The notes below the pieces were generated by a model. The model ran no database searches and had not been told where the DNA came from. It worked only from the letters and a program-made list of their open reading frames with translations. A stretch of DNA of 64,000 nucleotides from the NCBI GenBank assembly GCA_964016885.1, contig OZ024740.1, positions 335,916,001 through 335,980,000 on the forward strand. Reading direction: 5' to 3'. A program made the position numbers and the translations under genes. The stretch comes from Eledone cirrhosa. Taxonomy: Eukaryota. The stretch's first letter is position 1, and the number at the start of each line of letters is the position of its first letter. Shown piece after piece: positions 25,990-54,427 of this stretch.

Positions 25990-26095
25990 ATAGGAAAATG
26001 TATGACCTCGACGGCAGAGCTCGAGCCGTTTCAACGTCCAGAAATAGCCATCGAAACGGCTTGAGCTCTGCCGTCGGGGTCATACATTTTCCTAT
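25990..26095. repeat. Inverted repeat with 43-bp arms and 20-nt spacer between (TA)n tracts; each arm carries the 3' half of a hammerhead
   Basis: 25990-26032 is the reverse complement of 26053-26095 with 2 mismatches; arms read GAAA-CGGC-loop-GCCG-TC. Confidence 0.85.
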
Positions 26096-26171
26096 TACCC
26101 ACTCTACTACCCTAAGTATTGAGTACCCTGGTGCGTTATGGTCTATCTTGTTCCTTACCACAACTCCTTCG

Positions 26172-26221
<50 letters not shown>

Positions 26222-26229
<8 letters not shown>

Positions 26230-26371
26230 ATACTTTGGGAGGGTCATGTTGCCAATAAGAAACACACGCACCAGTTGCTTTCACTTCAATTTAATAAATT
26301 AAATTGAAGTGAAAGCAACTGGTGCGTGTGTTTCTTATTGGCAACATGACCCTCCCAAAGTATAACAATAT
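26222..26371. repeat. Perfect palindrome with 74-bp arms and 2-nt spacer in (TA)n; same family as 54024-54427
   Basis: 26222-26295 is the exact reverse complement of 26298-26371. CATGACCCTCCCAAAGTATAACAATAT and downstream sequence match 54340-54427. Confidence 0.92.
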
Positions 26372-26425
26372 CGGTTTCAACACACGATTTCAGATAAAGA
26401 ATCTTGCTAAACAAATTCAGAAACG

Positions 26426-26469
<44 letters not shown>

Positions 26470-26478
26470 TCATATATA

Positions 26479-26553
<75 letters not shown>

Positions 26554-26565
26554 GTATATATACAC

Positions 26566-26655
<90 letters not shown>

Positions 26656-26954
26656 CCCGGGTTCAATCTGGGCTAACCACAGTAAGTAAGGTACTCAATA
26701 CATAGTAGAGTATACATTTTTAATATGGAAATGACTTCTACAGAACTAAAAGTGTTTCATCTGAAATGAAATCATATATATTATGCTGTTGATTATGTTT
26801 ATTAAAATATTATTTTAACAGCATAATACACGAGATATTATAAACATGCATTTATAAAGACATATTCTATGAAATATGAAAATCAAAGCATATCAGGAAT
26901 ATCTATCTATCTATCTATCTATCTGCTTAACCACCTACTGTCTATTTGTCTTTC

Positions 26955-26992
<38 letters not shown>

Positions 26993-27222
26993 TTGTGTAT
27001 AATGGTAGCTATGGTGCTTCTATAGGCGGTATGCCAAAATTATCCCTCAATATTCAACAGAGTAGAGTGTGGATAGTATAAAAAAAACGAAAAATCAGTG
27101 ATGCATCTGGACTCAATTTATTGCGTGTTACAATAGTTTCGCCGACAGGTATTTCGAGACATGGTCACTGTATAGATCTGGCTGATAAAATCAGTGATAA
27201 AATTTGCTCCGATCGAACTACC

Positions 27223-27313
27223 CGTGTCTGAAGAAACCTGCAGCCGTAGAATCAGCCAGATCCATACAGTGACCATGTCTCGAACTACCTGCCAGCGAAA
27301 CAATTGTAACACG
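27223..27313 (+). ncRNA. Type I hammerhead ribozyme motif with long stem II, inside palindrome 27074-27362
   Basis: Stem I CGTGT/ACACG, core CTGAAGA (27228-27234) and GAAA (27297-27300), palindromic stem III ACAATTGT, GUA site after 27308. Base of stem II is poorly paired. Confidence 0.68.
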
Positions 27314-27462
27314 CAATAAATTGAGTCCAGATGCATCACTGATTTTTCGTTTTTTTATACTACATATATATATATATATATATATATACAAATAAAATAC
27401 AGAGTTATTAACTCATATTGATACTCTGCAATTAAACAAGCTCAAAGTATAAATACTGACTA

Positions 27463-27637
27463 TATCGGTAGAGGGTCGGACGCCATGCTTTGCAGCAAAG
27501 AGTTACGGCGCTTTATGGTCTGAGTTCAAATCCCGCCGAGGTTAACTTTGCCTTTCATCCTTACGGGGTCGATAAAATAAAGTACCAGTAATGTACTGGG
27601 TAATTGCTGGCCTTGTGCCAAAAGTAGAAACAATTAT
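27463..27637 (+). mobile_element. SINE, main family, inserted in the left arm of the nested palindrome
   Basis: Family core and tail; absent from the right arm. Confidence 0.88.
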
Positions 27638-28006
27638 ATAGTAATATATGTATAAATATACACAGTAAATTTCGTGTCTAAAATTAGGGGGGTAGAGAAT
27701 ACCACAAATGTTTTAAATATTTAATCTTAAATATAGAGTAGGATATAATTTTATACTGACCCTATCAAAAACATTTCATCTCTCGGACAGATTAAAGATT
27801 CAATGTTTCGCCCTGAAAATTGTGTTTTTGATAGGGTCAGTATAAAATTATATCCTACTGTATGTTTAAGATTAAATATTTATAACATTTGTGGTATTCT
27901 CTACCCTCGTAATTTTAGACACGAAATTTACTGATGCTCGGTATTTATACTTTGAGCTTGTTTAATTGCAGGGTATCAATATGATTTAATAACTCTGTAT
28001 TTTATT

Positions 28007-28070
<64 letters not shown>

Positions 28071-30514
28071 CGTGTGTGTGTGTGTGTGTGCGAGGGGGGG
28101 GGACAAAGGGACAAATAGACAGTAGGTGGTTAAGCAGATAGATAGATCGATAGATAGATAGATAGATAGATAGATTGATATTCCTGATATGCTTTGATTT
28201 GTATATTTCATAGAATATGTCTTTATAAATGCATGTTTATAATTCTATACAAAATATCTCGTGTATTATGCTGTTAAAATAATATTTTAATTATTTTATG
28301 CTGCTCAGTTATTTTTCTAGCTGTTTCTGTTGTTACAGTTACTGCTGTTATTTTTTGTATTTTATGAATAGATCATATTTCACCTCTTTGTTTATCGTTC
28401 ATGCTTTTGTTTCGTTATTTCGCTATATAACCTAACCCCACCCTCTATATAACATCAACTTAATTGATATTTCTAAATAGCGTCCATTTATTCTTTCTAT
28501 TTGATCATTCGGCACAATAGATGATTGAGTAGAACAAGCAACTAAAATACTAAACTGATATAAAACATACAATTAATCCTCGCATTTTATATATTTCTTA
28601 ATTACATATTAGATTGAATATAGAATCTATCTTCCATTTTGCCATATCAACTTCTATTTTTATTATCTCTAATTACAATTTATTATATTACACTTTTATG
28701 ACTTTTTCAATATGTATATTTGATTTTCTGAATAGAGTTGCCACTCACACATGATGGTTTCCATATGAAGCTTTTGGAGAAGTATTTGTCCCAAAAGGAT
28801 TCTTCATTTGTTTTATTTTTTAGAATTTATATGTAATTTTTTTTTTAACGTTTTCGTTCCCATTTTCCATTCCCAAAATATTAGTGAGAATAATTACATT
28901 TTTAAAACCACTTTTAGATTAAAATTTCTCTTGAAAAATCAATTAACTGATACACCTAATCTATATTCAAATGTAAATATTATCATTACCTTTTTCTATA
29001 TTTATTCATGTCAAACGTAAATGGAGAGCAAGGGAGAATGAAATAGAAGCGGCAGAAGCAGAAACCAGATAACTGATAAAGGGAGTGAGAAAGAAAGTGA
29101 ATGAGAACGATAAATTTAGTTGAATTTATATTACCCACACATGAGAATTTATATTTTAATATATTGATCATAATCTTCCGGTAAGCTATTGATGAAGGGG
29201 ATAACTTTATTCGGGTTCTGTTTATGACTGTTCTATTCACATTGAAATTATTCATGAGAAATGTATGAACGCCGCAATTTCATATCCACGTCTCCAAAAT
29301 TTGGAAGTTTGTTGTCTATAAATTCAGGTATGCTAATTATCAATGTTACTCATACTTTTCCCACATTAGAGCAGTGCATCCTTATTTTGTTGCGAAACTC
29401 TTATATGATTTTCCGAAAATCGCGAGACACATCCCTGTTTTAAAGATAACCATCATCACCCTAATTTTTAAAAAGACATTAATTGAAAAAAAATTGTTTT
29501 GTGGAAGAATTTCATAGAAAAATAAACAATATCCATTTATTAAATCTTATTAAACCAGATTTCTTCGCTCTGACCCCATTTAGAGAAACATTGCACTAGA
29601 GGAAAATAAAATAATTCAGTAATGTTCTATTAACTTAATACTTATTCGGCATTACGCCATCTTGGTCTTGACGATATTTTAACTCAAATTAGATAAACAA
29701 ACCTAAATACTGCTCTGCTTTTCCATTTCTGCCAAATCAAAAGTCTTTCATTAATTTCATTAAATAATTAATAGAGGTTTTCTCATATTTAACATATCAG
29801 CAAGTGATGGATGTTTACCGATTACTATTGAATTTTATGATGTTTAGAAATACTCATTTCTTATCGTTGCTATTTGTTGTGCTTCGCCTCGCTGTTCTAA
29901 ATCAGCTTCACTCTATCTACCATATTCCCCGGGGACATTTACTGACTCATATGTTAAATTATTTTCTGTTATCTCTTCCAGCATTGTGAATGGTAAGTAT
30001 ACTTTTGTTTCAATTAAATTAACATTTTCATTGTAACACTATTTCTGTACAGGCCATAATGTATATTCTATTATTATTCACACATAATTTAGAGGTGAAA
30101 GGCCAAAGTACTTTCGTAAGACTTTTTGAAGAATTTTGGACATGTATATTAGCGATTTTCGATTTATATGAATAAATCAGAAGCTGCCACTTAACAACAC
30201 AGAAGCTCTCTGAAATCTAGCAAACGGAATGTTAACATGCCAGAGAATAGAAATCAAAATTGCATAATGGAAATTCACGTTTATCAGAAAAACTGAAATG
30301 GTGTGATGGAAATTTCTATTATTATCTGAATGCAAAAGGCCAGGAACTATCCATTAATTTTCTGCCATAATAGATTCATCTGCATTTCCGTTGCCAAAGT
30401 CGAATGTTTACAGGATCTGCAGTCTTGTTTTGACATGGAAAATAGATGCATGTAACATTTAAATACTGATGTATGTTTTTATAAAGAAAAAATTATAACA
30501 ACTTACTTTTAGAA

Positions 30515-31135
30515 AGGCCGCCTGTGAGACGTGGGACCGGCTGGGACTTAGCCCAGTAGACTTCCCTCCTCCTTCTCCCCCTGTTGGACTCTTTCGGCCT
30601 CCACCCGCTTTCCTGTCGCCACAGTGCTGTCCGCATTCCACGCCATGCTGCCCTCAACGAGGTCATTAAGCATGGCTTGGACGCTGCAGGCTTCCCTTCT
30701 CAGCTCGAGCCGGTGGGCTGGATCGAGGGGTTGGCAAAAGGCCAGATGGCATGACCATCTTCCCGTTCCGCGGTGGCAAACCCCTCGTCTGGGATGCCAC
30801 TTGCACCGACACTTTCTGCAGCCGCAACCTGGTGCAGTCTGCGACTGACCCAGGTTCTGCTGCACGTCAGGCTGAGGGGGCCAAACTCCTCAAGTACCGG
30901 TCGCTCTCCGACAGTTTTGCGGTCGTACCCCTGGCAGTGGAGACTTCTGGTGTCCTCGGCCCCAGGGCTACCTCCTTACTCACCACCATAGGCGCTGAGC
31001 TGGCCAGCCGCAGGTTTGAGCCCCGCGAGTTGGACTGGCTTTTCCAGCGCATCTCCCTTGCCGTCCTCCGGGGAAATGCCTTCTCCATTCTGTCCGCCGG
31101 GGCTGTGGGTGTGCCCCATCGCGTACCGTTGTAAT
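30515..31135 (+). mobile_element. 5'-truncated CRE-like non-LTR retrotransposon: zinc-knuckle remnant plus restriction-like endonuclease, one frameshift
   Basis: GC-rich island translating LHPLSCRHSAVRIPRHAALNEVIK...LEPVG, frameshift near 30717, then DRGVGKRPDGMTIFPFRGGKPLVWDATC...KLLKY...VPLAVETSGVLG...QRISLAVLRGNA. Short minus-strand relatives at ~23680-23810 and ~44885-45035. Confidence 0.82.
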
Positions 31136-32499
31136 TGTTGTAGAAGAAACAGGAAGACAACAACTGGAAAGTTTGATTTTCTACTTTATCATTTACATCA
31201 ACATAGTTTATGTCCAGAAATCAGTGTTATGCCGTTGACATCTATTGAAGGATCTTTTCTTCATATAATATGTCGAAAGTAAAACAGCACAGCGAAGTAA
31301 TTTCCAACTACATTCCATTTTAGGGCATACAGAAAAACCTGAAGTCAGAGATGCGTATAATACAAGCGAAATGGTTGAATCGAGAATCGGTAGCATGTCT
31401 TTATTCGGCTTAAATTTATTTACATCATCTGCATAGATGACACTCGAAAATAACTTACAAAATATTAATAAAATATACTTCTTGACTCAGTTATGTTTCA
31501 CTAAAACAAAGTGATAGTGGAAAAACAAAGAGTTACAAGTTTGAACAGTAGTCAAATTCCTGTGCACTTATATTAGCCGACCTCAATCACATCATGAGTT
31601 TTTATATATCATGGTTTTTATATATCGACTGAACATTATTCGTTTGGGGATATTCAATAGATGTCAAATGTAATATAATGAAAGTATGTATAATATTCTT
31701 ATTGTAATTCGCAAATTAAATTAGAATATACTCCAGAGATTGAAGAAAAAGACAAACGACAAATCAATCATATATTGAACGAAATCAAATATAAACTTAA
31801 TGATAAAAAGGTATTTAAGTACTTTTTCGAATAATGCCTGTGTAACACGCAAAACTACAAACAGACGCACATTCGCTCATATACACTAACAGACAAGGAA
31901 GTACAAATATTTAATACATACTCACATATAGGTATATATATATATATGTGTGTGTGTGCGTGTGTGTGCGTGTCTGTGTGCGTGTGTCTGTGTGTTTACG
32001 TGTGTGTGTGCGCGTGTGTCTATGTATATTTGTACATATCAATCTTTCTTTACGTATACATCCACACATATATACGTTATATATATAAGTGTATGTGTGT
32101 GTGTTGGTGTGTGTAACTTACATCATCTGCATATGCACGTGCGTGCGTATGTTATTGGCCTGGTAGTGTCACATTAGTATTTATTGGACCTGCGACGATT
32201 CCGACGACAAGTGTTCCAGTTGTTCAAACAATGGAACAGCCGACTCTTGACCTTAACGTGTAAGTGGCTCATTGTTCCATAGATACGTACATCCTTAATG
32301 TAATTCTCATGGGAACTATGTGAGGTTCTTTGCTTTCACTTAAAACAAATTGGTGAGATGTAGCTTGTTTCGTGGGTAGTAATATATCTCTGTATAACAT
32401 TATAAACAACGTGAATATTAATACAGAAATGTTCTTGCGAGAAACTTCTTTGATGAACTTAATTTGATTGTACTTCATTGCATTTCAAACTTCGAAAGT

Positions 32500-33350: not shown

Positions 33351-33439
33351 AGGAATTTGCAAGTTGCGAGATGAACGAAAGCTTATAAAGTAATAGTATT
33401 TTAGTAAATTAATATGAATGCATAAACATTGTCTTAAGC

Positions 33440-33706: not shown

Positions 33707-33894
33707 TTATGTAATATACAACATAAGATAATTATTTGATTTACCAGTGGTTTCTTGAAGACAGATATTTATGTCTGTCTTCATTCATCAGAAAACTAAT
33801 AATATTTTTCTGATGAATGAAGACAGACAAAAATATCTGTCTTCAAGAAACCACTGGTAAATGAAATAATTATCTTATGTCGTTTATTACATAA
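33707..33894. repeat. Palindrome with ~88-bp arms next to (TA)n, hammerhead core in each arm
   Basis: 33707-33795 pairs with 33806-33894 with a few mismatches. Confidence 0.88.
33806..33865 (+). ncRNA. Hammerhead-like motif (mirror copy on the minus strand at ~33736-33795)
   Basis: CTGATGA (33810-33816), 10-bp stem II TGAAGACAGA/TCTGTCTTCA, GAAA, stem III ACC/GGT, GUA site after 33859. Stem I is only 2 bp. Confidence 0.6.
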
Positions 33895-34454: not shown

Positions 34455-35158
34455 GTGTATGTGGTGTGTTGTTCTATATATAGGGATTTAACATGTTTGT
34501 GGTGTGGTTGGGTTTTTTTTCTCCCCCTTTAATGAGTGTAGGGGTGTAGGTGTGTTGAAAAAATGTTAATAGCAGTAATGAGTTGAGACAGTGAGTAGGG
34601 TTGGGTGGGGAGAAATGTAGCAAGTGCGGCCTGCCTCGGTCATTCTCGAAAAATTCCTTTATTCAGAGGAAAAAGCTTTTAGTATTCCTTTGTGTCGAGA
34701 ATGGTCATAGGCAAACCGCACCTGCCAAGCTTGTAAACAATTCTTTTTTTCTGAAGAATTTTCTACGTCCATCCCAAAATTAGTCCTTTGTTCAACACAC
34801 ATATATGTGCGTATATACGTAAAATACACACACGGGCATATGTAGGAATATATAGGCACACACCATCAATCACACACCCATGTACATATAAATCCACATA
34901 CATACATAAAAACATATAAAGACACATATAAAAACACATATACACATACGTACACACACGAATATGTACTCATACCTCCACATGGGTATATATATATATA
35001 AATACATACATATAATACATATACACACATAAAGATACATAATGAAATATACATATATACACATACATACACACACACACGTGTACACACACACACATAT
35101 ACATATGTCCGTATATATACATCCGTTCACACATACATGCATACACACACACACATAT

Positions 35159-35211
<53 letters not shown>

Positions 35212-35512
35212 CACATATATATATATATATACACATAAACACATACAGACACATGCCTATGACCATTCTCGACACAAAGGAATACTAAAAGCTTTTTCCC
35301 CTGAATAAAGGAATTTTTCGAGAATGACCGGGGCAGCCCGCACTTGCTACATTTATCCCCACCCAACCCTACTCACTGTCTCAACTCATTACTGCTATTA
35401 ACATTTTTTCAACACACCTACACCTCTACACTCATTAAAGGGGGAGAAAAAACCCCCAACCACACCACAAACATGTTAAATCCCCATATATAGAACAACA
35501 CACCACATACAC
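34455..35512. repeat. Inverted repeat with ~260-bp arms and ~540-bp CA/TA-rich spacer
   Basis: 34455-34713 is the reverse complement of 35254-35512 with a handful of differences. Confidence 0.92.
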
Positions 35513-35944: not shown

Positions 35945-35954
<10 letters not shown>

Positions 35955-38797
35955 AAAACACACAGATACATGCGGACACACACATATATACATGAATGCA
36001 TCCGCACCCAACTGTGAGTTAAGGGTGCCAACTTCACCGATGTTGCTCAATGAATGACTGGGACAGACCAATTCAGTTTGAACCAGACTGAACCAGTATC
36101 AGAGTTAAAAATACATTATGAAGAGAGAAGAAACATTTAGATATAATTAGTAATAAAATGTATCATACCTAAACTGTTCCTAAATTCCTCGACTACGTAG
36201 TTTCGTGGCATAAACAAAAACAATATATCAAAGATATAGAGTCCTTGCGAGGTCTGCCAACTTATCAAGAGGATACCTCATTTTACTAGTCTCAAGAACG
36301 CGTCTACACGACGTGAGAAAGAATCCCAAAAGGCGGAGGGGGAGATAGTCACGCGATATAACGGTCGAGAAACAGAGCTAAGCCTCTTATAACCACGAAG
36401 AAAATACCACGGAGGCGGAGGGGGCATTCATATCGAGGCCGTAGAAGAGGTAGTGAAGAAGGCGAGAAGTATGAGTAATGGAAGCTTTCCAGTTGTCCCC
36501 ACACTTCAAAGATTGCTCGACCAGAGGGAGTTATTAATATATTTAAAAACACACAGATACATGCGGACACACACATATATACATGAATGCATCCGCACCC
36601 AACTGTGAGTTAAGGGTGCCAACTTCACCGATGTTGCTCAATGAATGACTGGGACAGACCAATTCAGTTTGAACCAGACTGAACCAGTATCAGAGTTAAA
36701 AATACATTATGAAGAGAGAAGAAACATTTAGATATAATTAGTAATAAAATGTATCATACCTAAACTGTTCCTAAATTCCTCGACTACGTAGTTTCGTGGC
36801 ATAAACAAAAACAATATATCAAAGATATAGAGTCCTTGCGAGGTCTGCCAACTTATCAAGAGGATACCTCGTTTTACTAGTCTCAAGAACGCGTCTACAC
36901 GACGTGAGAAAGAATCCCAAAAGGCGGAGGGGGAGATAGTTACGCGATATAACGGTCGAGAAACAGAGCTAAGCCTCTTATAACCACGAAGAAAATACCA
37001 CGGAGGCGGAGGGGGCATTCATATCGAGGCCGTAGAAGAGGTAGTGAAGAAGGCGAGAAGTATGAGTAATGGAAGCTTTCCAGTTGTCCCCACACTTCAA
37101 AGATTGCTCGACCAGAGGGAGTTATTAATATATTTAAAAACACACAGATACATGCGGACACACACATATATACATGAATGCATCCGCACCCAACTGTGAG
37201 TTAAGGGTGCCAACTTCACCGATGTTGCTCAATGAATGACTGGGACAGACCAATTCAGTTTGAACCAGACTGAACCAGTATCAGAGTTAAAAATACATTA
37301 TGAAGAGAGAAGAAACATTTAGATATAATTAGTAATAAAATGTATCATACCTAAACTGTTCCTAAATTCCTCGACTACGTAGTTTCGTGGCATAAACAAA
37401 AACAATATATCAAAGATATAGAGTCCTTGCGAGGTCTGCCAACTTATCAAGAGGATACCTCATTTTACTAGTCTCAAGAACGCGTCTACACGACGTGAGA
37501 AAGAATCCCAAAAGGCGGAGGGGGAGATAGTCACGCGATATAACGGTCGAGAAACAGAGCTAAGCCTCTTATAACCACGAAGAAAATACCACGGAGGCGG
37601 AGGGGGCATTCATATCGAGGCCGTAGAAGAGGTAGTGAAGAAGGCGAGAAGTATGAGTAATGGAAGCTTTCCAGTTGTCCCCACACTTCAAAGATTGCTC
37701 GACCAGAGGGAGTTATTAATATATTTAAAAACACACAGATACATGCGGACACACACATATATACATGAATGCATCCGCACCCAACTGTGAGTTAAGGGTG
37801 CCAACTTCACCGATGTTGCTCAATGAATGACTGGGACAGACCAATTCAGTTTGAACCAGACTGAACCAGTATCAGAGTTAAAAATACATTATGAAGAGAG
37901 AAGAAACATTTAGATATAATTAGTAATAAAATGTATCATACCTAAACTGTTCCTAAATTCCTCGACTACGTAGTTTCGTGGCATAAACAAAAACAATATA
38001 TCAAAGATATAGAGTCCTTGCGAGGTCTGCCAACTTATCAAGAGGATACCTCATTTTACTAGTCTCAAGAACGCGTCTACACGACGTGAGAAAGAATCCC
38101 AAAAGGCGGAGGGGGAGATAGTCACGCGATATAACGGTCGAGAAACAGAGCTAAGCCTCTTATAACCACGAAGAAAATACCACGGAGGCGGAGGGGGCAT
38201 TCATATCGAGGCCGTAGAAGAGGTAGTGAAGAAGGCGAGAAGTATGAGTAATGGAAGCTTTCCAGTTGTCCCCACACTTCAAAGATTGCTCGACCAGAGG
38301 GAGTTATTAATATATTTAAAAACACACAGATACATGCGGACACACACATATATACATGAATGCATCCGCACCCAACTGTGAGTTAAGGGTGCCAACTTCA
38401 CCGATGTTGCTCAATGAATGACTGGGACAGACCAATTCAGTTTGAACCAGACTGAACCAGTATCAGAGTTAAAAATACATTATGAAGAGAGAAGAAACAT
38501 TTAGATATAATTAGTAATAAAATGTATCATACCTAAACTGTTCCTAAATTCCTCGACTACGTAGTTTCGTGGCATAAACAAAAACAATATATCAAAGATA
38601 TAGAGTCCTTGCGAGGTCTGCCAACTTATCAAGAGGATACCTCATTTTACTAGTCTCAAGAACGCGTCTACACGACGTGAGAAAGAATCCCAAAAGGCGG
38701 AGGGGGAGATAGTCACGCGATATAACGGTCGAGAAACAGAGCTAAGCCTCTTATAACCACGAAGAAAATACCACGGAGGCGGAGGGGGCATTCATAT
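35945..38797 (-). mobile_element. Left tandem array (~4.8 x 591 bp) of a hammerhead-containing retrozyme/Penelope-like unit
   Basis: Exact 591-bp period (identical ORFs at 36349, 36940, 37531, 38122). Only two variant positions seen (36871, 36941). Begins at the edge of a (TA)n tract. Confidence 0.9.
36186..36273 (-). ncRNA. Type I hammerhead ribozyme, U3-A8 variant; identical copies at 36777-36864, 37368-37455, 37959-38046, 38550-38637
   Basis: Exact reverse complement of the motif at 38804-38891. Confidence 0.85.
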
Positions 38798-41321
38798 GAG
38801 GTATCCTCTTGATAAGTTGGCAGACCTCGCAAGGACTCTATATCTTTGATATATTGTTTTTGTTTATGCCACGAAACTACGTAGTCGAGGAATTTAGGAA
38901 CAGTTTAGGTATGATACATTTTATTACTAATTATATCTAAATGTTTCTTCTCTCTTCATAATGTATTTTTAACTCTGATACTGGTTCAGTCTGGTTCAAA
39001 CTGAATTGGTCTGTCCCAGTCATTCATTGAGCAACATCGGTGAAGTTGGCACCCTTAACTCACAGTTGGGTGCGGATGCATTCATGTATATATGTGTGTG
39101 TCCGCATGTATCTGTGTGTTTTTAAATATATTAATAACTCCCTCTGGTCGAGCAATCTTTGAAGTGTGGGGACAACTGGAAAGCTTCCATTACTCATACT
39201 TCTCGCCTTCTTCACTACCTCTTCTACGGCCTCGATATGAATGCCCCCTCCGCCTCCGTGGTATTTTCTTCGTGGTTATAAGAGGCTTAGCTCTGTTTCT
39301 CGACCGTTATATCGCGTGACTATCTCCCCCTCCGCCTTTTGGGATTCTTTCTCACGTCGTGTAGACGCGTTCTTGAGACTAGTAAAATGAGGTATCCTCT
39401 TGATAAGTTGGCAGACCTCGCAAGGACTCTATATCTTTGATATATTGTTTTTGTTTATGCCACGAAACTACGTAGTCGAGGAATTTAGGAACAGTTTAGG
39501 TATGATACATTTTATTACTAATTATATCTAAATGTTTCTTCTCTCTTCATAATGTATTTTTAACTCTGATACTGGTTCAGTCTGGTTCAAACTGAATTGG
39601 TCTGTCCCAGTCATTCATTGAGCAACATCGGTGAAGTTGGCACCCTTAACTCACAGTTGGGTGCGGATGCATTCATGTATATATGTGTGTGTCCGCATGT
39701 ATCTGTGTGTTTTTAAATATATTAATAACTCCCTCTGGTCGAGCAATCTTTGAAGTGTGGGGACAACTGGAAAGCTTCCATTACTCATACTTCTCGCCTT
39801 CTTCACTACCTCTTCTACGGCCTCGATATGAATGCCCCCTCCGCCTCCGTGGTATTTTCTTCGTGGTTATAAGAGGCTTAGCTCTGTTTCTCGACCGTTA
39901 TATCGCGTGACTATCTCCCCCTCCGCCTTTTGGGATTCTTTCTCACGTCGTGTAGACGCGTTCTTGAGACTAGTAAAATGAGGTATCCTCTTGATAAGTT
40001 GGCAGACCTCGCAAGGACTCTATATCTTTGATATATTGTTTTTGTTTATGCCACGAAACTACGTAGTCGAGGAATTTAGGAACAGTTTAGGTATGATACA
40101 TTTTATTACTAATTATATCTAAATGTTTCTTCTCTCTTCATAATGTATTTTTAACTCTGATACTGGTTCAGTCTGGTTCAAACTGAATTGGTCTGTCCCA
40201 GTCATTCATTGAGCAACATCGGTGAAGTTGGCACCCTTAACTCACAGTTGGGTGCGGATGCATTCATGTATATATGTGTGTGTCCGCATGTATCTGTGTG
40301 TTTTTAAATATATTAATAACTCCCTCTGGTCGAGCAATCTTTGAAGTGTGGGGACAACTGGAAAGCTTCCATTACTCATACTTCTCGCCTTCTTCACTAC
40401 CTCTTCTACGGCCTCGATATGAATGCCCCCTCCGCCTCCGTGGTATTTTCTTCGTGGTTATAAGAGGCTTAGCTCTGTTTCTCGACCGTTATATCGCGTG
40501 ACTATCTCCCCCTCCGCCTTTTGGGATTCTTTCTCACGTCGTGTAGACGCGTTCTTGAGACTAGTAAAATGAGGTATCCTCTTGATAAGTTGGCAGACCT
40601 CGCAAGGACTCTATATCTTTGATATATTGTTTTTGTTTATGCCACGAAACTACGTAGTCGAGGAATTTAGGAACAGTTTAGGTATGATACATTTTATTAC
40701 TAATTATATCTAAATGTTTCTTCTCTCTTCATAATGTATTTTTAACTCTGATACTGGTTCAGTCTGGTTCAAACTGAATTGGTCTGTCCCAGTCATTCAT
40801 TGAGCAACATCGGTGAAGTTGGCACCCTTAACTCACAGTTGGGTGCGGATGCATTCATGTATATATGTGTGTGTCCGCATGTATCTGTGTGTTTTTAAAT
40901 ATATTAATAACTCCCTCTGGTCGAGCAATCTTTGAAGTGTGGGGACAACTGGAAAGCTTCCATTACTCATACTTCTCGCCTTCTTCACTACCTCTTCTAC
41001 GGCCTCGATATGAATGCCCCCTCCGCCTCCGTGGTATTTTCTTCGTGGTTATAAGAGGCTTAGCTCTGTTTCTCGACCGTTATATCGCGTGACTATCTCC
41101 CCCTCCGCCTTTTGGGATTCTTTCTCACGTCGTGTAGACGCGTTCTTGAGACTAGTAAAATGAGGTATCCTCTTGATAAGTTGGCAGACCTCGCAAGGAC
41201 TCTATATCTTTGATATATTGTTTTTGTTTATGCCACGAAACTACGTAGTCGAGGAATTTAGGAACAGTTTAGGTATGATACATTTTATTACTAATTATAT
41301 CTAAATGTTTCTTCTCTCTTC

Positions 41322-41326
<5 letters not shown>
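38796..41326 (+). mobile_element. Right tandem array (~4.3 x 591 bp) of the same unit in the opposite orientation
   Basis: Reverse complement of 36115-38645; ends at a (TA)n tract starting at 41327. Confidence 0.9.
38804..38891 (+). ncRNA. Type I hammerhead ribozyme, U3-A8 variant; identical copies at 39395-39482, 39986-40073, 40577-40664, 41168-41255
   Basis: Stem I TCCTC/GAGGA, core TTGATAA and GAAA, stem II G(T)TGGCA/TGCCAC, palindromic stem III ACTACGTAGT, GUC cleavage predicted after 38886. Confidence 0.85.
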
Positions 41327-41360
<34 letters not shown>

Positions 41361-47061: not shown

Positions 47062-47258
47062 CAGGCCTGCCAACCTCTAAAACCCCAAACGGGGAGTACC
47101 ATGAAAAAAATAGTACCCCAAAACGAGGAGAAATGAGGCAAAATGGAGAGATTTTACATAATGAAAGCTATACCAACTTTTACAAGAGTACACATCTCTC
47201 ACTCGCCCCAAAGAGGGTGTGACATCTTCCCGTCGGAAGGGAAGAGTTGACATGTCTG
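47062..47258 (-). mobile_element. MITE of the CAGACCTGCCAAC-TIR family
   Basis: Ends CAGGCCTGCCAAC / GTTGACATGTCTG; flanks TAAATT / TAATTT. Confidence 0.75.
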
Positions 47259-48763
47259 TAATTTACTGAGGTGATAATTTAAGATAATATTCAATAAGAT
47301 GTTGAAATTTCAAATGTTAATACATCTTCCCTAATTTCTTCCTTATTTTTGTAGATGTCAAGGGCGGTGCCCCAGCATGGCCTCAGTCGGATGGCTGGAA
47401 CATGTAAAAGAGTAAAAGAGTTTATGTTATTCTCCGGCATGATTTCACTTTTTCTTGGGATATTTGTTTTGACGAAATTCTACAGACCAAAAGGTCAGTG
47501 AATTCCTATCCCGAGTCATTGGCTCTTTTACATGGGAGATACTGGGTTTCAATGCCTCGAATCCTTTTCAAGGTACGCATTGGGAATACAAAATTCTTAT
47601 AAGCATAGACAACGTCAAAATGCATAGTTCATCTAAGATACTACACTGATGGTCGTATCTTTTTAGAACTGCAAATTAATTCCTTCAAATTCCCTCAACA
47701 CATATCTCAAACGTTAAAGATCATTAGTTATATCTGACTATTCAGCATATAATTCCTTTGTATAATATTTGTTGCTACTAGATGTTATTTGAAAATGTAA
47801 TTTTGTTGCGTCCCACTGGCAAAGAATCCTTTTAACACAGTTACTTCTGATTAACAATCCATCTTGTTGCTAAAAGGGGAATTGCTTTCAGCAACGTGGT
47901 TTAATTTATATATTTTCTCATAAGATTGTCTTCCCAGAACGGATCTGGTGAACCAAGTAATCAAAGTTAGAAAGTAGTTCTTTAGCAGCTAAGGATCAGC
48001 TAAGGATTCTTTAGCAGCTAAATGGAGAGAGTAGCAAAGGCATTTCATGGGATTCATATTTGGATTATATAATGTTATTAACGTGTAGAGAACATCATTA
48101 ACACTACAATGGTATGAAGCCCCGTTCGTTTCAAAAACAAGCAATTTTAATATTTCTTACCTCATCACTCAAAACTGTTTTCAGGACTTGTGAATAAATC
48201 AGCAGTAGTTTTTGGAACAGGAATTAATATTTACAATGTTATTTTGTCATTTATTGTAATATGTAGCACGCTCACAAGCAATATATGTTGACTCATTCAA
48301 AATCTAGTAGAACCGACTTTCACATCAATGTGTTCTTGCAGTTAAGATGGAGCAATAATACTGTTTACAATTGCTACGCAAATCAAATGCATTTGATGAA
48401 GGAATTCTTTCAATAAGTTCTCATAAATGATCAACACTATGTATACTATGTATATGTTCTGAACGAAAAGGAAAACACTTGCTTTGATTGTTCGCTTTGT
48501 TAAATGTTTTTGTTTTGTTTTTTTTTAGCTCGAATTTGAACCCTGCACACTTTTTATAAAGCATTATTGCTTCTTTTATCCAGGATTTTTGAGATGCATT
48601 AACGTAATTTGACCATTTCTTTATTGTACAATTGAATAAAATATTGGAATAGTTGAGATATCTTTATACAGACTTAGCATTATAAAACTTCGTCGGTCTT
48701 TGAGTATAAGATGACATTTTCATTTAGTCAAACAAACAAAATTAAATTGGCACTGTGTAATCA

Positions 48764-48908
48764 AGAATCGTACACTTTTTCCACATGATTGATACCACGA
48801 TGTTTCGAAGAAGCCTCGACGTGGTCGTTAGCAGGATCAAATCCAGAATCGTACACATTTTTCACATGATTGATACCACCATGTTTCGAAGAAGCCTCGA
48901 CGTGGCCG
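48764..48908. repeat. Local tandem duplication, ~81-bp period
   Basis: AGAATCGTACAC...CACATGATTGATACCAC...GAAGAAGCCTCGACGTGG occurs twice. Confidence 0.85.
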
Positions 48909-49299
48909 TATAAATTGCAGTGTCTTGCCAAAAATATCAACATACATTTTGAAATAAAATAGTAAACTAGCAAAATAAGTCAAAGAGTTTCTAAGTAACC
49001 CAAAAAGTAAAATGTAGCCCAAATCTATAAAACATAGCATTTAGTCCTAAAAGTTTGCTTAATATTTTAGTGTAACTTAATCTGGAAATCAAAACCGTGG
49101 TTTTAAAGGTAGATAACCGAAACACATAGGACGATACAAATGTTGAGGAACAGTGGAGATTTACATAAATCAAATAAACAAAGAAAAATATAGCATGATA
49201 AGAAGAAAAATTAATGACAGAATTCCCCAAAAGGAGGAAAGCACCACTCAGAGGTGATTTAGAAACTCTACAAATAGGAAATCTCCATGTTCGCCCAGT

Positions 49300-50280
49300 A
49301 TCGGAAAGATGCACATATCAAAGGATGATCACATTTGTTCACTGTTTACGAATATTTGCAAATGACTTAGCCTCAACGTTTGTTTACGCATCAATAGACA
49401 GGACATGCCGAGCCCTTCGCGCAAAGATAGTTAGCAGCAGATTGACCGCTTCACTAGTGGAACGTATTCCTTCCACAAGAAGTGAAAGTGTGGAAACTCC
49501 CATATAGTGAGACTCGATCAGGGGCAAGGGATGACGGTCAGACAGTTATATATTGCCACGCTCCTCGTCTGTCACTCGCGTTTCAGTGCACGTACATAGC
49601 TCTGAGAATGCAATCTTCGTGTCGAACAATTGGCACAGTGCCATTCTCGCAGCTAGTACGTCGGTTGCAATGTCTAATCAAATCTTTCTCCTTTCGCTAC
49701 TTCTTTGCTATTGATTCTACTTTAGTTGCTCTCATGAAAACGCAACACCACCTTTTCTTTATGGTTTTTGTCCCAGTCAACTGTCTCTTAACTAGTGTGC
49801 TTATCCGGTCTCTGCAGAATTTACGTGCCGAGACTGACGCGTTAACCTTCCAGCAATCGGATACTCGTCTAACTGTTCTATTTAGGTTGATCATGCTGAT
49901 CGCAAATTTGTGGTCTAAATATGTGGGCCTCCTAGATTTCCTTATCTGCATACCTAAGGAAAAACTATATACGATCTAAATGGCTCTATGTGATTGCTCC
50001 ATATCCTCACTGGCGCATTCGGAGTGTTTATTCGCTACATGTCAGTCGCAACTAAAGTAATCCGACCATCCTTCCCAAGTCGGGGCATAGATTGTCACGA
50101 GTCTAAAAGTACCTGCTTCTCTACCATTTACATCCGAGAAAATCGTCCGTATTTCGAGGTGCATGTAGAACTTTCTGAAATAGTATTGACCCCTCTCCTG
50201 ATATTCTAGGTCAACTATGAAATAGGTAAGTCTTAAAACGTCAAAAATAAAGTCTAGTGCGCGCATGGGAAATCCTGGTC
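49300..50280 (-). mobile_element. Decayed Tx1/L1-like LINE ORF2 N-terminus (AP endonuclease)
   Basis: FRLVTIYAPT, TWSN and YLDHK...WKVNAS motifs in the expected order, with stops and frameshifts. Confidence 0.7.
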
Positions 50281-51339
50281 ACGCTGATAGCTGACACAGC
50301 TATAGTTAGCAACCTTGCTTCCAGGACGACTCAAGGCAAACGTGCATTTTTACTACTCTTATTATAGTCAATTTTTAGTTTGTAGGTCCTCCCATTGTGC
50401 TATGAGGGTCATCGGTTTTTAATCCGTCCTCATTATTAACACAAACTTCGATGTCTGTGTGTGTGGCTAGTTGTTCTTGTTTTTGTGTGCATGTGTGCTT
50501 GTGCTGTTTTTGTGTAAGTTTCTTTTTGTTGTGGGCAGTGATGATTGTGGTAGTAGTAGTAGTGGTGGTGGTGGCAACGGTGGTTGTGGTGGTCGGGTTG
50601 ACAGTTGCTGTAGTTGTGTTAACGGTCGTGGTGATGCAAGAGTTTGTGTTGCTGCACACGTCTCTGGTTTGTTTTCGAGTTATCAGGAGCGTATGTTAGG
50701 GTGAGACGGAATGTATTCTTTTTATTTATTCTGTGTCTTTTTTTTGTTTTGTTCTTTTTTTTTGGGGGGGGGGGGGTGTTCACAGCATGAGGAGGGGGTA
50801 GCCATGTCTGACGGGTGTTGGACTGTGTTTGTGTCAGTATCAAAATATGTGTGTATTTGAAATTTGAAAGAGGTGGGAGAAGAAGTGGAATAGCTGTGTT
50901 AGGGGACCCCAGGGTGGCTTTGTTGATTTTTGTTGTTTTTCTTTATGATGTTGATGATGAAGATTATGATGATGGTGGTAATGGTGGTGCTGCTGCTGCT
51001 TATGTGATAGCTACTGTCACTCCTGTTGGTGTTGCTGTTGTTTTTATTGTTGGTGGTGTTGGGATCATGTTGCTGGCGTTTATTTTTAACAAGATTTGGA
51101 CGCATTTTATCCATTAAAGGCTGAAGATAGTGGGAAACCCACCAGGTCTGTAGGTACGTTGTCGGTTTAGCTACAAAGCAATACAAAAATTCCCAGAGTA
51201 CAACGTTTCAGAACCTGGTGAAAAACAACTATCTTATAAAGATCTTCTGTAACACCCTGCATTGAGACACGAACAAATAGTAATATTAATACCACCACCA
51301 CGACCAACAACAACAAGAACGGCAATAATAACAATAAAA

Positions 51340-51892
51340 ATAATGGTTTCTGATTTAGGCACAAGGCCAGCAATTTTGGGGGAGGGGGAATTCGATTAAA
51401 TCGACCCCAATACATGAGTGGTACTTTATTTTATCGACCGCGTAAGGGTGAAAGGCGAAGCTAACCTCGGCAGGATTTGAACTCAGAACGTAAAGAGCTG
51501 TAACTATATGCCACAAAGCATGTTGTCCGACATTCTACCGATTCTGCTAATCCCCCCCCCCCCCAATAATAATGGTTTCTTATATAGGCAGCAATTTGGG
51601 GAGAGGGGACAGTCGATTAAATCGATCCCAGTGCGAGACTGGTATTTTATTTTATCGACCCCATAAGGATGAAAGGTAAAGTTAACCTCGGCGGGCCCCA
51701 ATAATAATTGTTTCTACTTTGGCACAAGGCCAGCAATTTATCCAGTGTATTACTGGTACTTTATTTTATCGACCCCGTAAGGATGAAAGGCAAAGTTAAC
51801 CTCGGTGGGATTTGAACGCAGATCATAAAGGGCCGTAACTCTTTGCTGCAAAGCATGTTGTCAGACCCGCTTCCGATACTGCCAATCTACCG
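51340..51892 (-). mobile_element. Three tandem SINE copies, main family
   Basis: Family core repeated three times head to tail. Confidence 0.85.
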
Positions 51893-52193
51893 GGCCCCAA
51901 TAATAATATTAATCAGCCTTGTTCGTCACTGCGCCCATTTTAAGGGAAGTATTATCTGTCTAAGGTGCTTGTTGTGAATTGACAGATGGCTAAATACTCC
52001 GGTACATTTTCCATCTACACTGCGTGGCAAAACAAATAAGATTAAGAAAATGTGTGACCAATGAGGGACATTACGAAGATAAATTAGAAAAAGAGACCAT
52101 GGTGTTAAATAAAAACGATTATGGTGTCTTTTCCGTAGGTAAACATAATCACACACATATTTAATCGGTTTCTGCATAGTTTCTCCCAAAAAA

Positions 52194-52388
52194 CAGACCT
52201 GCCAACTCTCCGCGTCCGACGGGGAGATCTCCCACCCACTTTGGGGTGGGTGAAAGATGTCTTCTCTTGTGAAAATAGATATAGTGTTATTATGTAAGAT
52301 CTCTCCATTTTTGCCTCATTTCTCCTCGTTTTCAGGCACTTTTTTTTATGGTACTCCTCGTTTGGGTTTTTAGAGGTTGGCAGGTCTG
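52194..52388 (+). mobile_element. MITE of the CAGACCTGCCAAC-TIR family
   Basis: Perfect 13-bp TIR CAGACCTGCCAAC / GTTGGCAGGTCTG; flanks AAAAAA / ATAAAA. Confidence 0.85.
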
Positions 52389-53380
52389 ATAAAAGGACTA
52401 GTCAACCTCAGGCTACAGTAAAAGACACTTACACAATGTACCGCATAGTGGAATTGAATCAGAACCGCGTGATGGTGAAACGAATTTCATAACCGCACAG
52501 CTATGTAGACTACTTACATTTTAACTCTCGTTACTAAAGTGAGTATGTTTCCCTAACTGCAGTAATTACTATAATTTGTATAGGATTTATTAACTGTTTC
52601 AATTGATATGGAAGACAGACGACATAATGGTGAACTCTAAAATGTTGCTGAATCTTAGCATTGAACTCCATCACCGTTGATAATAGCCAATATAATTATT
52701 AATGAACAAAGATATTTATTACGAGTAACATTCTAGAGAACAGAAAAAAAGCATTTCTCCTCTGTAATAACCACAGTATAAAGGTTTTATCCAATGTAAT
52801 ATAACAAATAATCACAGGAATAAAAGTAATAGCTAAAGGAAGTTTAATTATAATAATTGCAAGGAAACGACTAAAAAAAGAATTTTAATGCATTATACGG
52901 GTTTGTGATTTCAATGAGATAAAATATTAAAACGAATTATTCTTTAATTACATTAATCTGATTTCAAATTCTGTTTTCAGCTTTTATTCAAATGATGTGT
53001 ATCACGTGCTTAGAATCGAAATATATTGAAATGGTCTCTGTGGTGTCCCTTTCATCATGCATATAACACCAGACATATTATGATGGTGAGTTGTCTGTTC
53101 TATTTACACACACACATGTCATCAAGCACTTCAACAAAATACGGAAATGTTTCTATTTACTTCAACATATACACACTATCACACGTAGTGTGATGTTTCT
53201 ATTATTAACTTCGTTATATACAGACCGTCACGCTTAATAACGTGTTACCTGTTGTTTATTTATAAACTACTATGATTTCTTGGTTCGGAACCTCCTGACA
53301 AACCACTACATTGTAGCGTGTATTAATAATACTAGAGATCAACAACAGAACCGGCTCTGTGGTGCATGGTAATATGTAGA

Positions 53381-53569
53381 CAGACCTGTCAACTCTCCCC
53401 GTAGACATCTCTCACCCACTTTGAGGTGGGTGAGATATGTCTTCTTTTGTGAAAATGGATACAGCCTTCCTTATGTAAAATCTCATCATTTTGCACCATT
53501 TCTACCCGTTTTGGGACATTTTTTTTTCATGGTACTTCCCGTTTGGGTTTTTAGAGTTTGGCAGGTCTG
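53381..53569 (+). mobile_element. MITE of the CAGACCTGCCAAC-TIR family
   Basis: Ends CAGACCTGTCAAC / TTTGGCAGGTCTG; flanks TGTAGA / AGTAGA. Confidence 0.82.
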
Positions 53570-53976
53570 AGTAGAGGTTTCCAGAAAGGAATAACGGTTT
53601 TTCCTGTTACATATAGCACAACGTAGCTTAATACATATCTGATGACATTCATTTCAACATCTGGAAACACATCTCATTAGAGATGAAGACACATCACTCA
53701 AATGAAAATAAGTATAATACGTGTTCTTGAAAACTACAAAAATGACATGCAATGTAGCCAAACACTCTACACAGAATGGGTTTGTCATCAGAGAATTCAC
53801 ACTACACATTGTCAACCAGACACTGTTAGTCGTGTTTCCATAATTTACCTGCTATCTATACATTTCCCTCTATCTAGCTTCTTTCCGTCTTGCTCATTAT
53901 GCAACTTCCATCGATCAAATATGTCTTTCAGTTAACTTCTATATTTTCAAAGTACTACATTCTCCCGCAATGAATG

Positions 53977-54021
<45 letters not shown>

Positions 54022-54023
54022 CA

Positions 54024-54425
54024 TAGTTATACTTTGAGAGGTTCATGCTGCCAAGTGGGTTAGTTTAATAACCGGATGGTTGTTTAGTTGAGTATCTAAG
54101 CTCTTTCGTCACACATGCTGTGACCTATTCAGTGAAAAAACCAGATGGTGTAAGTCAGAACAAAGGAGAAACACAAAGTATTAGCAAAAGTAGTCACTGA
54201 GGAAGTCACAGAATGTGTGACGAAAGAGCTTAGACAATCAACAACTAAATAACTATCAGGTTATCAAACTAACCGACTGGGAAATTATAATAATAAATTG
54301 AAGCGAAACCCAACAGGCGTATGTGTTTTTTATGGGCAGCATGACCCTCCTAAAGTATAACAATATGTTTCAATTCAACATACGTTTTCAGATAGAAAAT
54401 CATGTAAAACAAATACAAAACCGAA

Positions 54426-54427
<2 letters not shown>
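54024..54427. mobile_element. Inverted Penelope-like terminal-repeat fragment in (TA)n with a hammerhead-like motif in each arm
   Basis: Plus 54193-54235: CTGAGGA-A-GTCACA-GAATG-TGTGAC-GAAA-GAGCTT. Mirror copy at 54094-54134 on the minus strand. (TA)n on both sides. Confidence 0.62.

What the first reader, a model, noticed from the sequence alone, without database searches (positions are those of the whole stretch)
25990..54427. Recurring rule: unrelated palindromes in (TA)n tracts have their inversion centre at or just 5' of a hammerhead
Seen: at least five sequence-unrelated inverted structures (25990-26095, 27074-27362, 33707-33894, 35945-41326, 54024-54427) lie in or beside (TA)n. In all of them the hammerhead sense points outward, and the fold-back junction lies within about 60 nt upstream of the ribozyme core or inside it. 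Inference: these are small and large products of one mechanism, multiple ribozyme-bearing retroelement families targeting TA microsatellites with RT stalling or switching at the ribozyme. Many apparent MITEs in such genomes could then be retro-derived.
Basis: inference. Interest (0 to 1): 0.72.

Follow-up and report, generated by a model that had tools for sequence, protein, structure and literature searches.

The report
Head-to-head Penelope-type retroelement stubs in microsatellites
The mirror-image repeats sitting in TA microsatellites are head-to-head insertions of several short retroelement families, some carrying hammerhead-like motifs, that are likely copied by Penelope-like element enzymes; this layout is already known, and the turn-around point is not tied to the ribozyme.

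Summary
All five inverted structures exist and lie in or beside (TA)n. Each is a repeat unit joined head-to-head to an inverted, 5'-truncated copy of itself. The 3' ends face outward and abut (TA)n, and an extra "tail" sits at one end only.

This matches the published insertion architecture of endonuclease-bearing Penelope-like elements (PLEs). The genome holds over 10,000 candidate GIY-YIG hits and RT-plus-GIY-YIG ORFs.

The hammerhead part holds only partly.
- No Rfam hammerhead reaches threshold in the window or in 400 kb around it.
- A home-made descriptor finds complete hammerhead-like motifs in the 591-nt tandem unit, in 33707-33894 and in 54024-54427.
- 25990-26095 and 27074-27362 keep only a GAAAC-helix III remnant.

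Outward orientation is real: 16 structures against 2 in a 464-kb sample.

The junction rule fails as a rule. In the 464-kb sample 9 of 16 structures fit.

Other sessions of this scan reached the same PLE reading on other DNA of this genome.

Verdict: new members of a known kind. The retro-origin reading is supported; ribozyme-set switching is not shown.

The parts
25929..25992 (.). (TA)n tract abutting the left end of palindrome A
   Evidence: TRF; sequence
25990..26095 (.). Family A fold-back. Two inverted unit copies with 3' ends outward and a 14-nt loop. Each arm keeps GAAAC + 5-bp hairpin + GUC (the 3' half of a hammerhead-like motif) but has no CUGANGA core.
   Evidence: 30 loci aligned; at least 2408 candidates, 40 scored
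26096..26172 (+). One-sided tail of family A (about 75 nt), followed by (TA)n at 26173-26225
   Evidence: the same tail follows the palindrome on one side only in the aligned copies
26225..26369 (.). Near-perfect palindrome with no hammerhead core or motif.
   Evidence: 150 nt, 98.7%
26370..26427 (+). One-sided tail of the B/E family, followed by (TA)n at 26428-26579
   Evidence: The same tail follows 54362 and L153 3170-3250
26982..27076 (-). One-sided tail of family C, preceded by (TA)n at 26957-26991
   Evidence: tail on the left in 9, on the right in 10 and on both sides in 1 of 20 loci
27077..27362 (.). Family C fold-back. The right arm is a unit with a fixed 5' end; the left arm is an inverted copy truncated at a point that varies among copies. 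Only a GGCGAAAC-AAUU-GUA remnant is present.
   Evidence: (at least 2979 candidates, 40 scored)
27388..28008 (.). The 49-nt centre holds the 3' half of a hammerhead-like motif on the - strand.
   Evidence: homologous complete motif at -122892
33707..33894 (.). Family D fold-back. CUGAUGA-stem II-GAAAC-ACC/GGU-A motif on both arms pointing outward (cores at 33791 on - and 33810 on +). The junction lies 9-10 nt 5' of the cores. This copy lacks the family's 75-nt tail.
   Evidence: (at least 1818 candidates, 40 scored)
35951..38797 (-). Left arm of the large fold-back: 4.8 copies of the 591-nt unit, hammerhead-like sense on the - strand (cores at 36268, 36859, 37450, 38041, 38632). The outer end is at unit position R245 on (TA)n.
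38798..41327 (+). Right arm: 4.3 copies of the 591-nt unit, hammerhead-like sense on the + strand (cores at 38809, 39400, 39991, 40582, 41173). The inner end is at R503, 11 nt 5' of a core. The outer end is at R80 on (TA)n at 41325-41359.
54024..54362 (.). B/E-family fold-back. The right arm holds CUGAGGA-A-GUCACA..UGUGAC-GAAAG (core at 54197, + strand, pointing outward). The left arm is truncated inside stem II and carries a 55-nt internal deletion.
54363..54425 (+). One-sided tail of the B/E family, followed by (TA)n at 54426-54481

Best explanation
These structures are head-to-head insertions of several short, non-coding retroelement families in (TA)n tracts, likely copied by the reverse transcriptase-endonuclease of Penelope-like elements (PLEs).

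Shown directly:
- Every structure is a unit, or a multimer of a unit, joined at its 5' side to an inverted, 5'-truncated copy.
- Both 3' ends face outward and abut (TA)n.
- One end carries an extra stretch of the unit (a tail of about 60-165 nt).
- Some families carry type-I hammerhead-like motifs near their 3' end, so the motifs point outward.

Inferred:
- The PLE endonuclease would cut a (TA)n tract.
- The two DNA ends would each prime reverse transcription on the element RNA at two AU-rich sites, T1 and T2. In the 591-nt unit these lie 80 and 245 nt after the predicted cleavage site.
- The two cDNAs would then be joined by microhomology wherever synthesis stopped.
- The centre therefore marks 5' truncation or the RNA's 5' end, not the ribozyme. 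It falls near the ribozyme mostly because the ribozyme sits close to the 3' end of short units.
- The 591-nt arrays would come from a multimeric or circular RNA copied in one event.
For: Architecture of the 591-nt family (23 of 23 loci, including the window):
- All are [- arm][+ arm].
- All have one outer end at R80 and the other at R245, or at 247/203 in 3 loci.
- 45 of 46 ends abut (TA)n.
- Diagnostic variants are shared by all units of both arms of a locus or are singletons, apart from one 3-of-4 site in L130, which indicates one event per array. In the window all units are identical except 2 private transitions.
- The inner ends vary over the whole unit.

Other families:
- Family C: fixed unit 5' end, inverted arm truncated at different points, tail on one side in 19 of 20 loci.
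- Families A and D: one-sided 75-nt tails.
- Canonical Rfam-level hammerhead family elsewhere in the genome: 18 hits at or above the gathering score out of 74 scored. 27 of 30 sampled copies end on (TA)n. 9 of 30 have an inverted copy upstream at -66 to -823 nt. 2 of 30 are simple 5' truncations on (TA)n.

Enzymes:
- PF01541 gives 150 of 150 scored hits above the Pfam cut-off, from 10,596 candidates.
- ORFs carry RVT_1 followed by a C-terminal GIY-YIG domain.
- L153 is a 3266-nt, 99.7% PLE palindrome with outward minimal hammerhead motifs, ending on (TA)n.

Literature (passages of PMC8557442): PLE insertions are 5'-truncated partial tandems, often with an inverted 5'-truncated copy at the 5' end and a tail at one end only. 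Hammerheads lie in the pLTRs, and (TA)n is a preferred target.

464-kb sample:
- 53 descriptor hits against 1 in the reversed sequence.
- 29 of the 53 fall in palindromic structures that cover at most 10.4% of the sequence.
- 16 structures point outward and 2 inward (p=0.0013).
Against: - No sequence link was found between any of these non-coding families and the 3' end of a coding PLE. The canonical family has no ORF within 1.5 kb upstream in 7 of 7 copies checked.
- No Rfam hammerhead reaches threshold in 464 kb. The 591-nt unit gives none even at E<=10 in a 361-nt search. Its fold z-score is only -1.55. So "ribozyme" rests on a home-made descriptor and inspection by eye.
- Families A and D have a constant centre across copies, which would also fit elements that move as whole palindromes.
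- Two-end priming is inferred. It does not by itself explain why the ends are always one T1 and one T2.
- The published tail is 30-40 bp; here the tails are about 60-165 nt.
- The genome search scores only the 40 best candidates per query, so the copies sampled are the youngest.
Confidence: 0.78

Rival explanations
1. One reading: the reverse transcriptase stalls or switches template at the hammerhead, so the ribozyme itself sets the inversion centre.
For: - In the 464-kb sample, 9 of 16 outward structures have the nearest core within -12 to +50 nt of the centre.
- In the canonical family, 5 of 9 fold-backs have a junction inside the motif or within about 60 nt upstream. Three of these (L157, L184, L175) have arms starting in stem II, at GAAAC or in helix III.
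- In the 591-nt family, 9 of 46 arm ends lie at R553-589, the first part of the motif an RT would meet, against about 2.9 expected.
- Family A and the centre of 27388-28008 keep only the 3' half of a motif.
Against: - 591-nt family: 14 of 46 ends in the zone against 11.1 expected (p=0.31). 4 of 46 lie within 60 nt 5' of the core against 4.7 expected. A window holding 9 ends is reached by chance in 15% of simulations. The best hot spot lies outside the motif.
- 7 of 16 sample structures have their centre 135-482 nt from the core.
- 4 of 9 canonical fold-backs are farther away.
- 52 of 70 palindromic structures have no complete motif.
- The motif lies 45-250 nt from the 3' end, so short 5'-truncated units must have centres near it.
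Confidence: 0.15
2. These are DNA-transposon MITEs or foldback elements that prefer TA targets (Tc1/mariner-like) and move as whole palindromes.
For: Families A, C and D have thousands of candidate copies of nearly constant length. The ends lie at TA. The family A and D centres are constant in position.
Against: - The inverted arm is truncated at different points among copies of one family.
- The elements are polar, with a tail on one side only: 19 of 20 for family C and 23 of 23 for the 591-nt family.
- Simple 5'-truncated copies abut (TA)n.
- Multimer arrays exist with variable unit numbers.
- The same layout is seen in a coding RT/GIY-YIG element.
- The family D centre loop varies in sequence and length among 15 aligned copies.
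Confidence: 0.05
3. Variant of the main reading: one cDNA snaps back on itself to make the second arm, and the endonuclease then trims one end. This replaces priming from both DNA ends.
For: - Arms within a locus are 99.8-100% alike in 21 of 23 loci; the best pairing is 100% in 14 of 23.
- Array-wide variants are shared by both arms.
- Junction overlaps of 0-7 nt and filler sequence fit template switching.
- The authors of PMC8557442 suggest that endonuclease-mediated resolution makes the tail.
Against: Snap-back predicts symmetric ends. 23 of 23 arrays are asymmetric, and always at the same two positions, so a second sequence-specific step is needed. The family is so uniform (0-3 differences per unit between loci) that identical arms do not discriminate between the two variants.
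Confidence: 0.3
4. The large palindrome with near-identical arms is an assembly artefact.
For: Arms of 2.5 kb differ at only 5 positions. Craig et al. note that such structures trouble assemblies.
Against: 22 other loci on 12 contigs show the same layout with different junctions and the same T1/T2 ends. Two private substitutions lie in one arm only.
Confidence: 0.02

Closest known systems
Insertions of endonuclease-bearing Penelope-like elements (Craig, Yushenova, Rodriguez and Arkhipova 2021, PMC8557442; passages read)
   Same: 5' truncation; partial tandems; an inverted 5'-truncated copy abutting the 5' end; a tail at one end only; hammerhead motifs near the 3' end (pLTR); a preference for (TA)n. 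The genome holds many RT-plus-C-terminal-GIY-YIG ORFs, and one of them shows the same palindrome layout.
   Different: The window's elements are non-coding and only 100-600 nt per unit. The tails are about 60-165 nt rather than 30-40 bp. Three of the families lack a complete hammerhead. No shared 3' end with a coding PLE was found. The PLE clade was not determined here.
Metazoan non-LTR retrozymes (Cervera and de la Pena 2020, PMC7229834, passages; Li, Clavereau and Pollet 2026, bioRxiv 10.64898/2026.07.22.740005, abstract and passages)
   Same: Non-coding tandem units, each with a type-I hammerhead-like motif that has a weak helix III capped by a palindromic loop. They are proposed to be non-autonomous PLE derivatives. 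The variants shared across whole arrays here fit one-event multimer formation.
   Different: The unit here is 591 nt; the search listing gives 600-1000 nt for plant retrozyme circRNAs (PMC5680766). The core is UUGAUAA rather than CUGAUGA. Every array examined is a fold-back with T1/T2 ends in (TA)n. The words 'inverted' and 'microsatellite' do not occur in the 2020 paper, and in the 2026 preprint each occurs once and not about such insertions. Circular RNA and self-cleavage were not tested here.
L1 5' inversions by twin priming (Ostertag and Kazazian 2001; recalled, not read)
   Same: Both DNA ends of the target prime reverse transcription, and the products are joined with microhomology, giving an inverted 5' part.
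   Different: Twin priming inverts a different, upstream part of the RNA without duplicating it. Here both arms hold the same 3'-terminal sequence.
MITEs and foldback DNA transposons
   Same: Short, abundant, hairpin-forming, sitting at TA.
   Different: Variable junctions, polarity, a one-sided tail, 5'-truncated solo copies and multimer arrays.

Membership tests
PLE-type insertion (EN+ Penelope-like elements) | [quoted passage not shown] | tested here: met
   591-nt family, 23 of 23 loci. Family C, 20 of 20 with variable truncation. Canonical family, 9 of 30.
PLE-type insertion (EN+ Penelope-like elements) | Partial tandem copies | tested here: met
   591-nt arrays of 1.6 to about 9.5 units. 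Arrays with periods of 485 and about 490 nt occur in the flanks. Not seen in families A, C and D.
PLE-type insertion (EN+ Penelope-like elements) | [quoted passage not shown] | tested here: met
   23 of 23 (R80 versus R245). 19 of 20 in family C. Families A and D. The length exceeds the published 30-40 bp.
PLE-type insertion (EN+ Penelope-like elements) | Insertion bias for (TA)n | tested here: met
   45 of 46 ends. 38 of 70 structures against 7.6 by chance.
PLE-type insertion (EN+ Penelope-like elements) | RT plus GIY-YIG ORF in the element, or a 3' end shared with such an element | tested here: not met
   No ORF with a domain hit in the window. No ORF upstream in 7 of 7 canonical-family copies. 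Coding PLEs exist elsewhere in the genome, but no shared 3' end was sought systematically.
Hammerhead ribozyme type I (Rfam RF00163) | Score at or above the curated gathering score | tested here: not met
   0 hits in the window and in 400 kb of flanks. None at E<=10 for the 591-nt unit. A flank motif scores 16.1 bits against a threshold of 34. A different family elsewhere in the genome does pass (18 hits).
Hammerhead ribozyme type I (descriptor level) | CUGANGA core, stem II, GAAA, helix III closed by A-U, H17, stem I | tested here: inconclusive
   - 591-nt unit: all features present, but the core is UUGAUAA and stem II is bulged.
- D: canonical core with an A.A pair at the base of stem II and a weak stem I.
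- E: core plus one extra nucleotide before stem II.
- A and C: no core.
- Descriptor hits: 53 against 1 in the reversed sequence.
- A G.U to U.G change in stem I between two flank copies, and different but paired stem II sequences between two D subfamilies.
Hammerhead ribozyme | Self-cleavage | not testable with these tools
   No arm of the 591-nt family ends exactly at the predicted cleavage site, 0 of 46.
Non-LTR retrozyme | Tandem units, each with a type-I hammerhead | tested here: inconclusive
   Tandem arrangement met. The hammerhead is met at descriptor level only.
Non-LTR retrozyme | Expressed as circular RNA | not testable with these tools
   No RNA run is listed as holding the unit.
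MITE / foldback DNA transposon | Fixed terminal inverted repeats moving as one unit, with a target-site duplication | tested here: not met
   Variable junctions and polar tails. A target-site duplication cannot be read inside (TA)n.

The most novel reading that the evidence does not exclude
Each fold-back, from 100-nt hairpins to 5-kb arrays, is the product of a single PLE-mediated event. In it the two ends of a cut (TA)n tract start copying a ribozyme-bearing, multimeric or circular RNA at two fixed sites, T1 and T2, which lie 165 nt apart in the 591-nt unit. The strict one-T1-one-T2 rule would then be a natural read-out of the unsolved PLE integration mechanism. It would also mean that thousands of MITE-like palindromes in this genome are retrotransposition products rather than DNA transposons.
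Probability: 0.35. Interest if true: 0.6.

Novelty: new member of a known kind. Interest (0 to 1): 0.4.

Why it matters
The layout is textbook for Penelope-like elements, so the finding mainly matters for annotation. In this genome a large class of hairpin repeats in TA microsatellites should be filed as retro-derived PLE stubs or retrozyme-like elements, not as MITEs.

The very young 591-nt family gives unusually clean material for the open question of how PLEs make tandem and inverted insertions and the one-sided tail. Its arrays differ by 0-3 bases per unit, are always fold-backs, and always have one end at each of two fixed sites.

Tried and rejected
- Strict descriptor requiring a contiguous stem II: 0 hits. 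It was relaxed.
- The descriptor hit at 33810 used a wrong register (a second GAAA). It was re-read by eye using the family alignment.
- Apparent arm ends exactly at the predicted cleavage site were BLAST query-edge artefacts. The arms continue 3-30 nt into the motif.
- U-type cores (TTGANAA) were dropped from the orientation test. They lie mostly outside palindromes (1 of 21 hits inside one) and include a simple-repeat artefact.
- The hits at 95044 and 237919 look like chance cores in palindrome centres, but they were left in the automatic count. Without them the count is 14 outward to 2 inward.
- 17 of 87 structures were dropped before the counts because they were simple-repeat-rich or shorter than 60 nt.
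- 54024-54427 was not recovered by the automatic palindrome finder.
- No RNA holder is listed for the unit.
- Laying contigs of four runs on the junction gave only short repeat contigs, and none bridges 38797.
- ORF and Pfam scan of the window: no meaningful domain.
- Rfam at E<=10 on two flank motifs gave no hammerhead row for the minimal inverted pair.
- A first flank BLAST without repeat filtering was swamped by microsatellite hits.

Full report
**What is there.** The window lies at C1:335916001-335980000 of a 3.0-Gb AT-rich eukaryotic genome. All five inverted structures exist and lie in or beside (TA)n. The largest, 35951-41327, is a tandem array of a 591-nt unit that runs 4.8 copies one way and then 4.3 copies the other way. 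Its arms differ at 5 positions over 2540 nt, 3 of them at the outer edge. One is 26225-26369, which shares its arms and tail with 54024-54427. The other is 27388-28008, which carries a nested SINE.

**Anatomy from family copies.** Each small palindrome belongs to a high-copy family. First-look candidates number at least 2408, 2979 and 1818 for 25990-, 27074- and 33707-type elements, with 40 scored each. Alignments with flanks show polar elements, not symmetric ones.
- Family C (20 loci): the right arm is a unit with a fixed 5' end. The left arm is an inverted copy cut off at different points in different copies. A tail lies on one side only in 19 of 20 loci, and (TA)n lies on the other side.
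- Families A (30 loci) and D (14 loci plus the window): each has a 75-nt tail on one side. In D the centre loop varies in sequence and length. In A the 14-nt loop occurs in both orientations relative to the tail.

**The 591-nt family.** I analysed 23 loci on 12 contigs, including the window.
- All 23 are [- arm][+ arm].
- Numbering the unit from the predicted cleavage site (R coordinates), one outer end is always at about R80 and the other at about R245.
- 45 of 46 ends abut (TA)n.
- The inner ends are scattered over the unit.
- Diagnostic variants are either shared by every unit of both arms of a locus or are singletons, apart from one 3-of-4 site in L130, so each array arose in one event.

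**Link to Penelope-like elements.** Passages of Craig et al. 2021 (PMC8557442) describe PLE insertions as follows:
- 5'-truncated partial tandems;
- often with an inverted 5'-truncated copy at the 5' end;
- a tail at one end only;
- hammerheads in the pLTRs;
- (TA)n as a preferred target.

The genome gives 150 of 150 scored GIY-YIG hits above the Pfam cut-off, from 10,596 candidates. It has ORFs with RVT_1 followed by a C-terminal GIY-YIG domain. One coding element forms a 3266-nt, 99.7% palindrome with outward minimal hammerhead motifs, ending on (TA)n. Retrozyme papers propose that animal hammerhead tandem repeats are non-autonomous PLE derivatives. I found no shared 3' end between a coding PLE and the window's families, and I did not determine the PLE clade.

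**The hammerhead claim.**
- Rfam finds nothing at gathering score in the window or in 400 kb of flanks. It shows no hammerhead among the 150 rows listed at E<=10.
- Elsewhere in the genome one family does pass: 18 hits of 74 scored. It shows the same architecture. 27 of 30 sampled copies end on (TA)n. 9 of 30 have an inverted copy upstream at -66 to -823 nt. 2 of 30 are solo 5' truncations on (TA)n.
- My descriptor finds complete motifs in three places. The 591-nt unit has a UUGAUAA core, a long bulged stem II, GAAAC, an ACU-ACGU-AGU helix III and a GUC site. The others are at 33791/33810 and at 54197.
- 25990-26095 and 27074-27362 have no core and keep only GAAAC plus a helix III-like hairpin.
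- The U3/A8 tolerance and the extra nucleotide after A9 are recalled from the hammerhead literature. They come from no call.
- In 464 kb the C-core descriptor gives 53 hits against 1 in the reversed sequence.
- One flank motif aligns to the full Hammerhead_1 model at 16.1 bits against a threshold of 34.
- Several motifs have the weak helix III with a palindromic loop described for animal type-I hammerheads. One G.U to U.G change in stem I is seen between two flank copies.

**The rule, tested.** I joined the window with 200 kb on each side.
- Of the 87 structures found, 70 were kept. The 17 dropped were simple-repeat-rich or shorter than 60 nt.
- 38 of the 70 have (TA)>=6 within 20 nt of a boundary. 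Random placement gives a mean of 7.6.
- 29 of 53 descriptor hits lie in these structures, which cover at most 10.4% of the sequence.
- 16 structures have only outward motifs and 2 only inward (p=0.0013). Two of the 16 look like chance cores.
- 52 of the 70 have no complete motif.
- The nearest core lies -12 to +50 nt from the centre in 9 of the 16, and 135-482 nt away in the other 7.

In the 591-nt family geometry does not force closeness, so it is the cleanest test.
- 13 of 23 loci have at least one such end against 9.8 expected (p=0.21).
- 4 of 46 ends lie within 60 nt 5' of the core against 4.7 expected.
- The strongest cluster is R336-372 (11 ends, scan P=0.011), outside the motif.
- A second cluster at R553-589 (9 ends) lies in the motif's 3' half but is not significant on its own.
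- No arm ends at the cleavage site itself.

**Reading.** The outward polarity and the (TA)n setting are real and follow from PLE-type integration. The closeness of the centre to the ribozyme is a tendency. It is largely explained by the motif lying 45-250 nt from the 3' end of short, 5'-truncated units. Some pausing at stem II remains possible. Priming from both DNA ends, a snap-back alternative, and a circular RNA template are all inferences. No RNA data could be obtained.

**Earlier notes of this scan.** Notes on other DNA of this genome reach the same PLE reading. I saw them after forming mine, and they are not independent evidence.

Noticed in passing
L121-L140, L008, L010 and window 35951-41327: In the 591-nt family the two outer ends are never alike. 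In 23 of 23 arrays one end is at about R80 (..TTCATAATGTAT) and the other at about R245 (..TTTTAAATATAT), on either side. Both sites are AU-rich and merge into the flanking (TA)n.
   Followed up: partly
L091-L120 (family A copies): The 14-nt centre loop of family A occurs in both orientations relative to the one-sided tail (for example L101, L102, L113 and L119 against L091). So either arm can be the longer one.
   Followed up: no
window 27461-27660, 62615-62754, 63035-63174 and others: A tRNA-like SINE of about 140-200 nt (..GAGTTCAAATCCCGCCGAGGT..) recurs in the window in both orientations. It accounts for most long-distance inverted pairs, and one copy is nested inside the 27388-28008 fold-back.
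   Followed up: no
flanks: L212/L213 (window-relative 131652-134903) and L202/L203 (-32577 to -29829): Two more fold-back tandem arrays, with units of 485 and about 490 nt. Each unit has a convincing type-I hammerhead-like motif pointing outward. Their centres lie 442 and about 320 nt from the nearest core.
   Followed up: partly
window 34455-34713 and 35254-35512: 259-nt inverted arms (97%) enclose a 540-nt AC/AT-rich microsatellite. No hammerhead-like motif was found. It may be two elements facing each other across a repeat rather than a fold-back.
   Followed up: no
L153 (C1:97884000-97893900) 3260-6525: A coding PLE fragment forms a 3266-nt, 99.7% palindrome. Two 402-aa GIY-YIG-ending ORFs overlap at the centre. 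A full B/E-family unit lies directly beside it at 2990-3250.
   Followed up: partly
464 kb around the window: CUGANGA-type hammerhead-like motifs occur about once per 9 kb (53 hits against 1 in the reversed sequence). None reaches the Rfam gathering score, mostly because of long stem II inserts or a minimal helix III.
   Followed up: partly
window 18932-19051: A (TG)n/(TACA)n compound microsatellite gives the best, spurious, miRNA-family scores in the Rfam E-value search.
   Followed up: no
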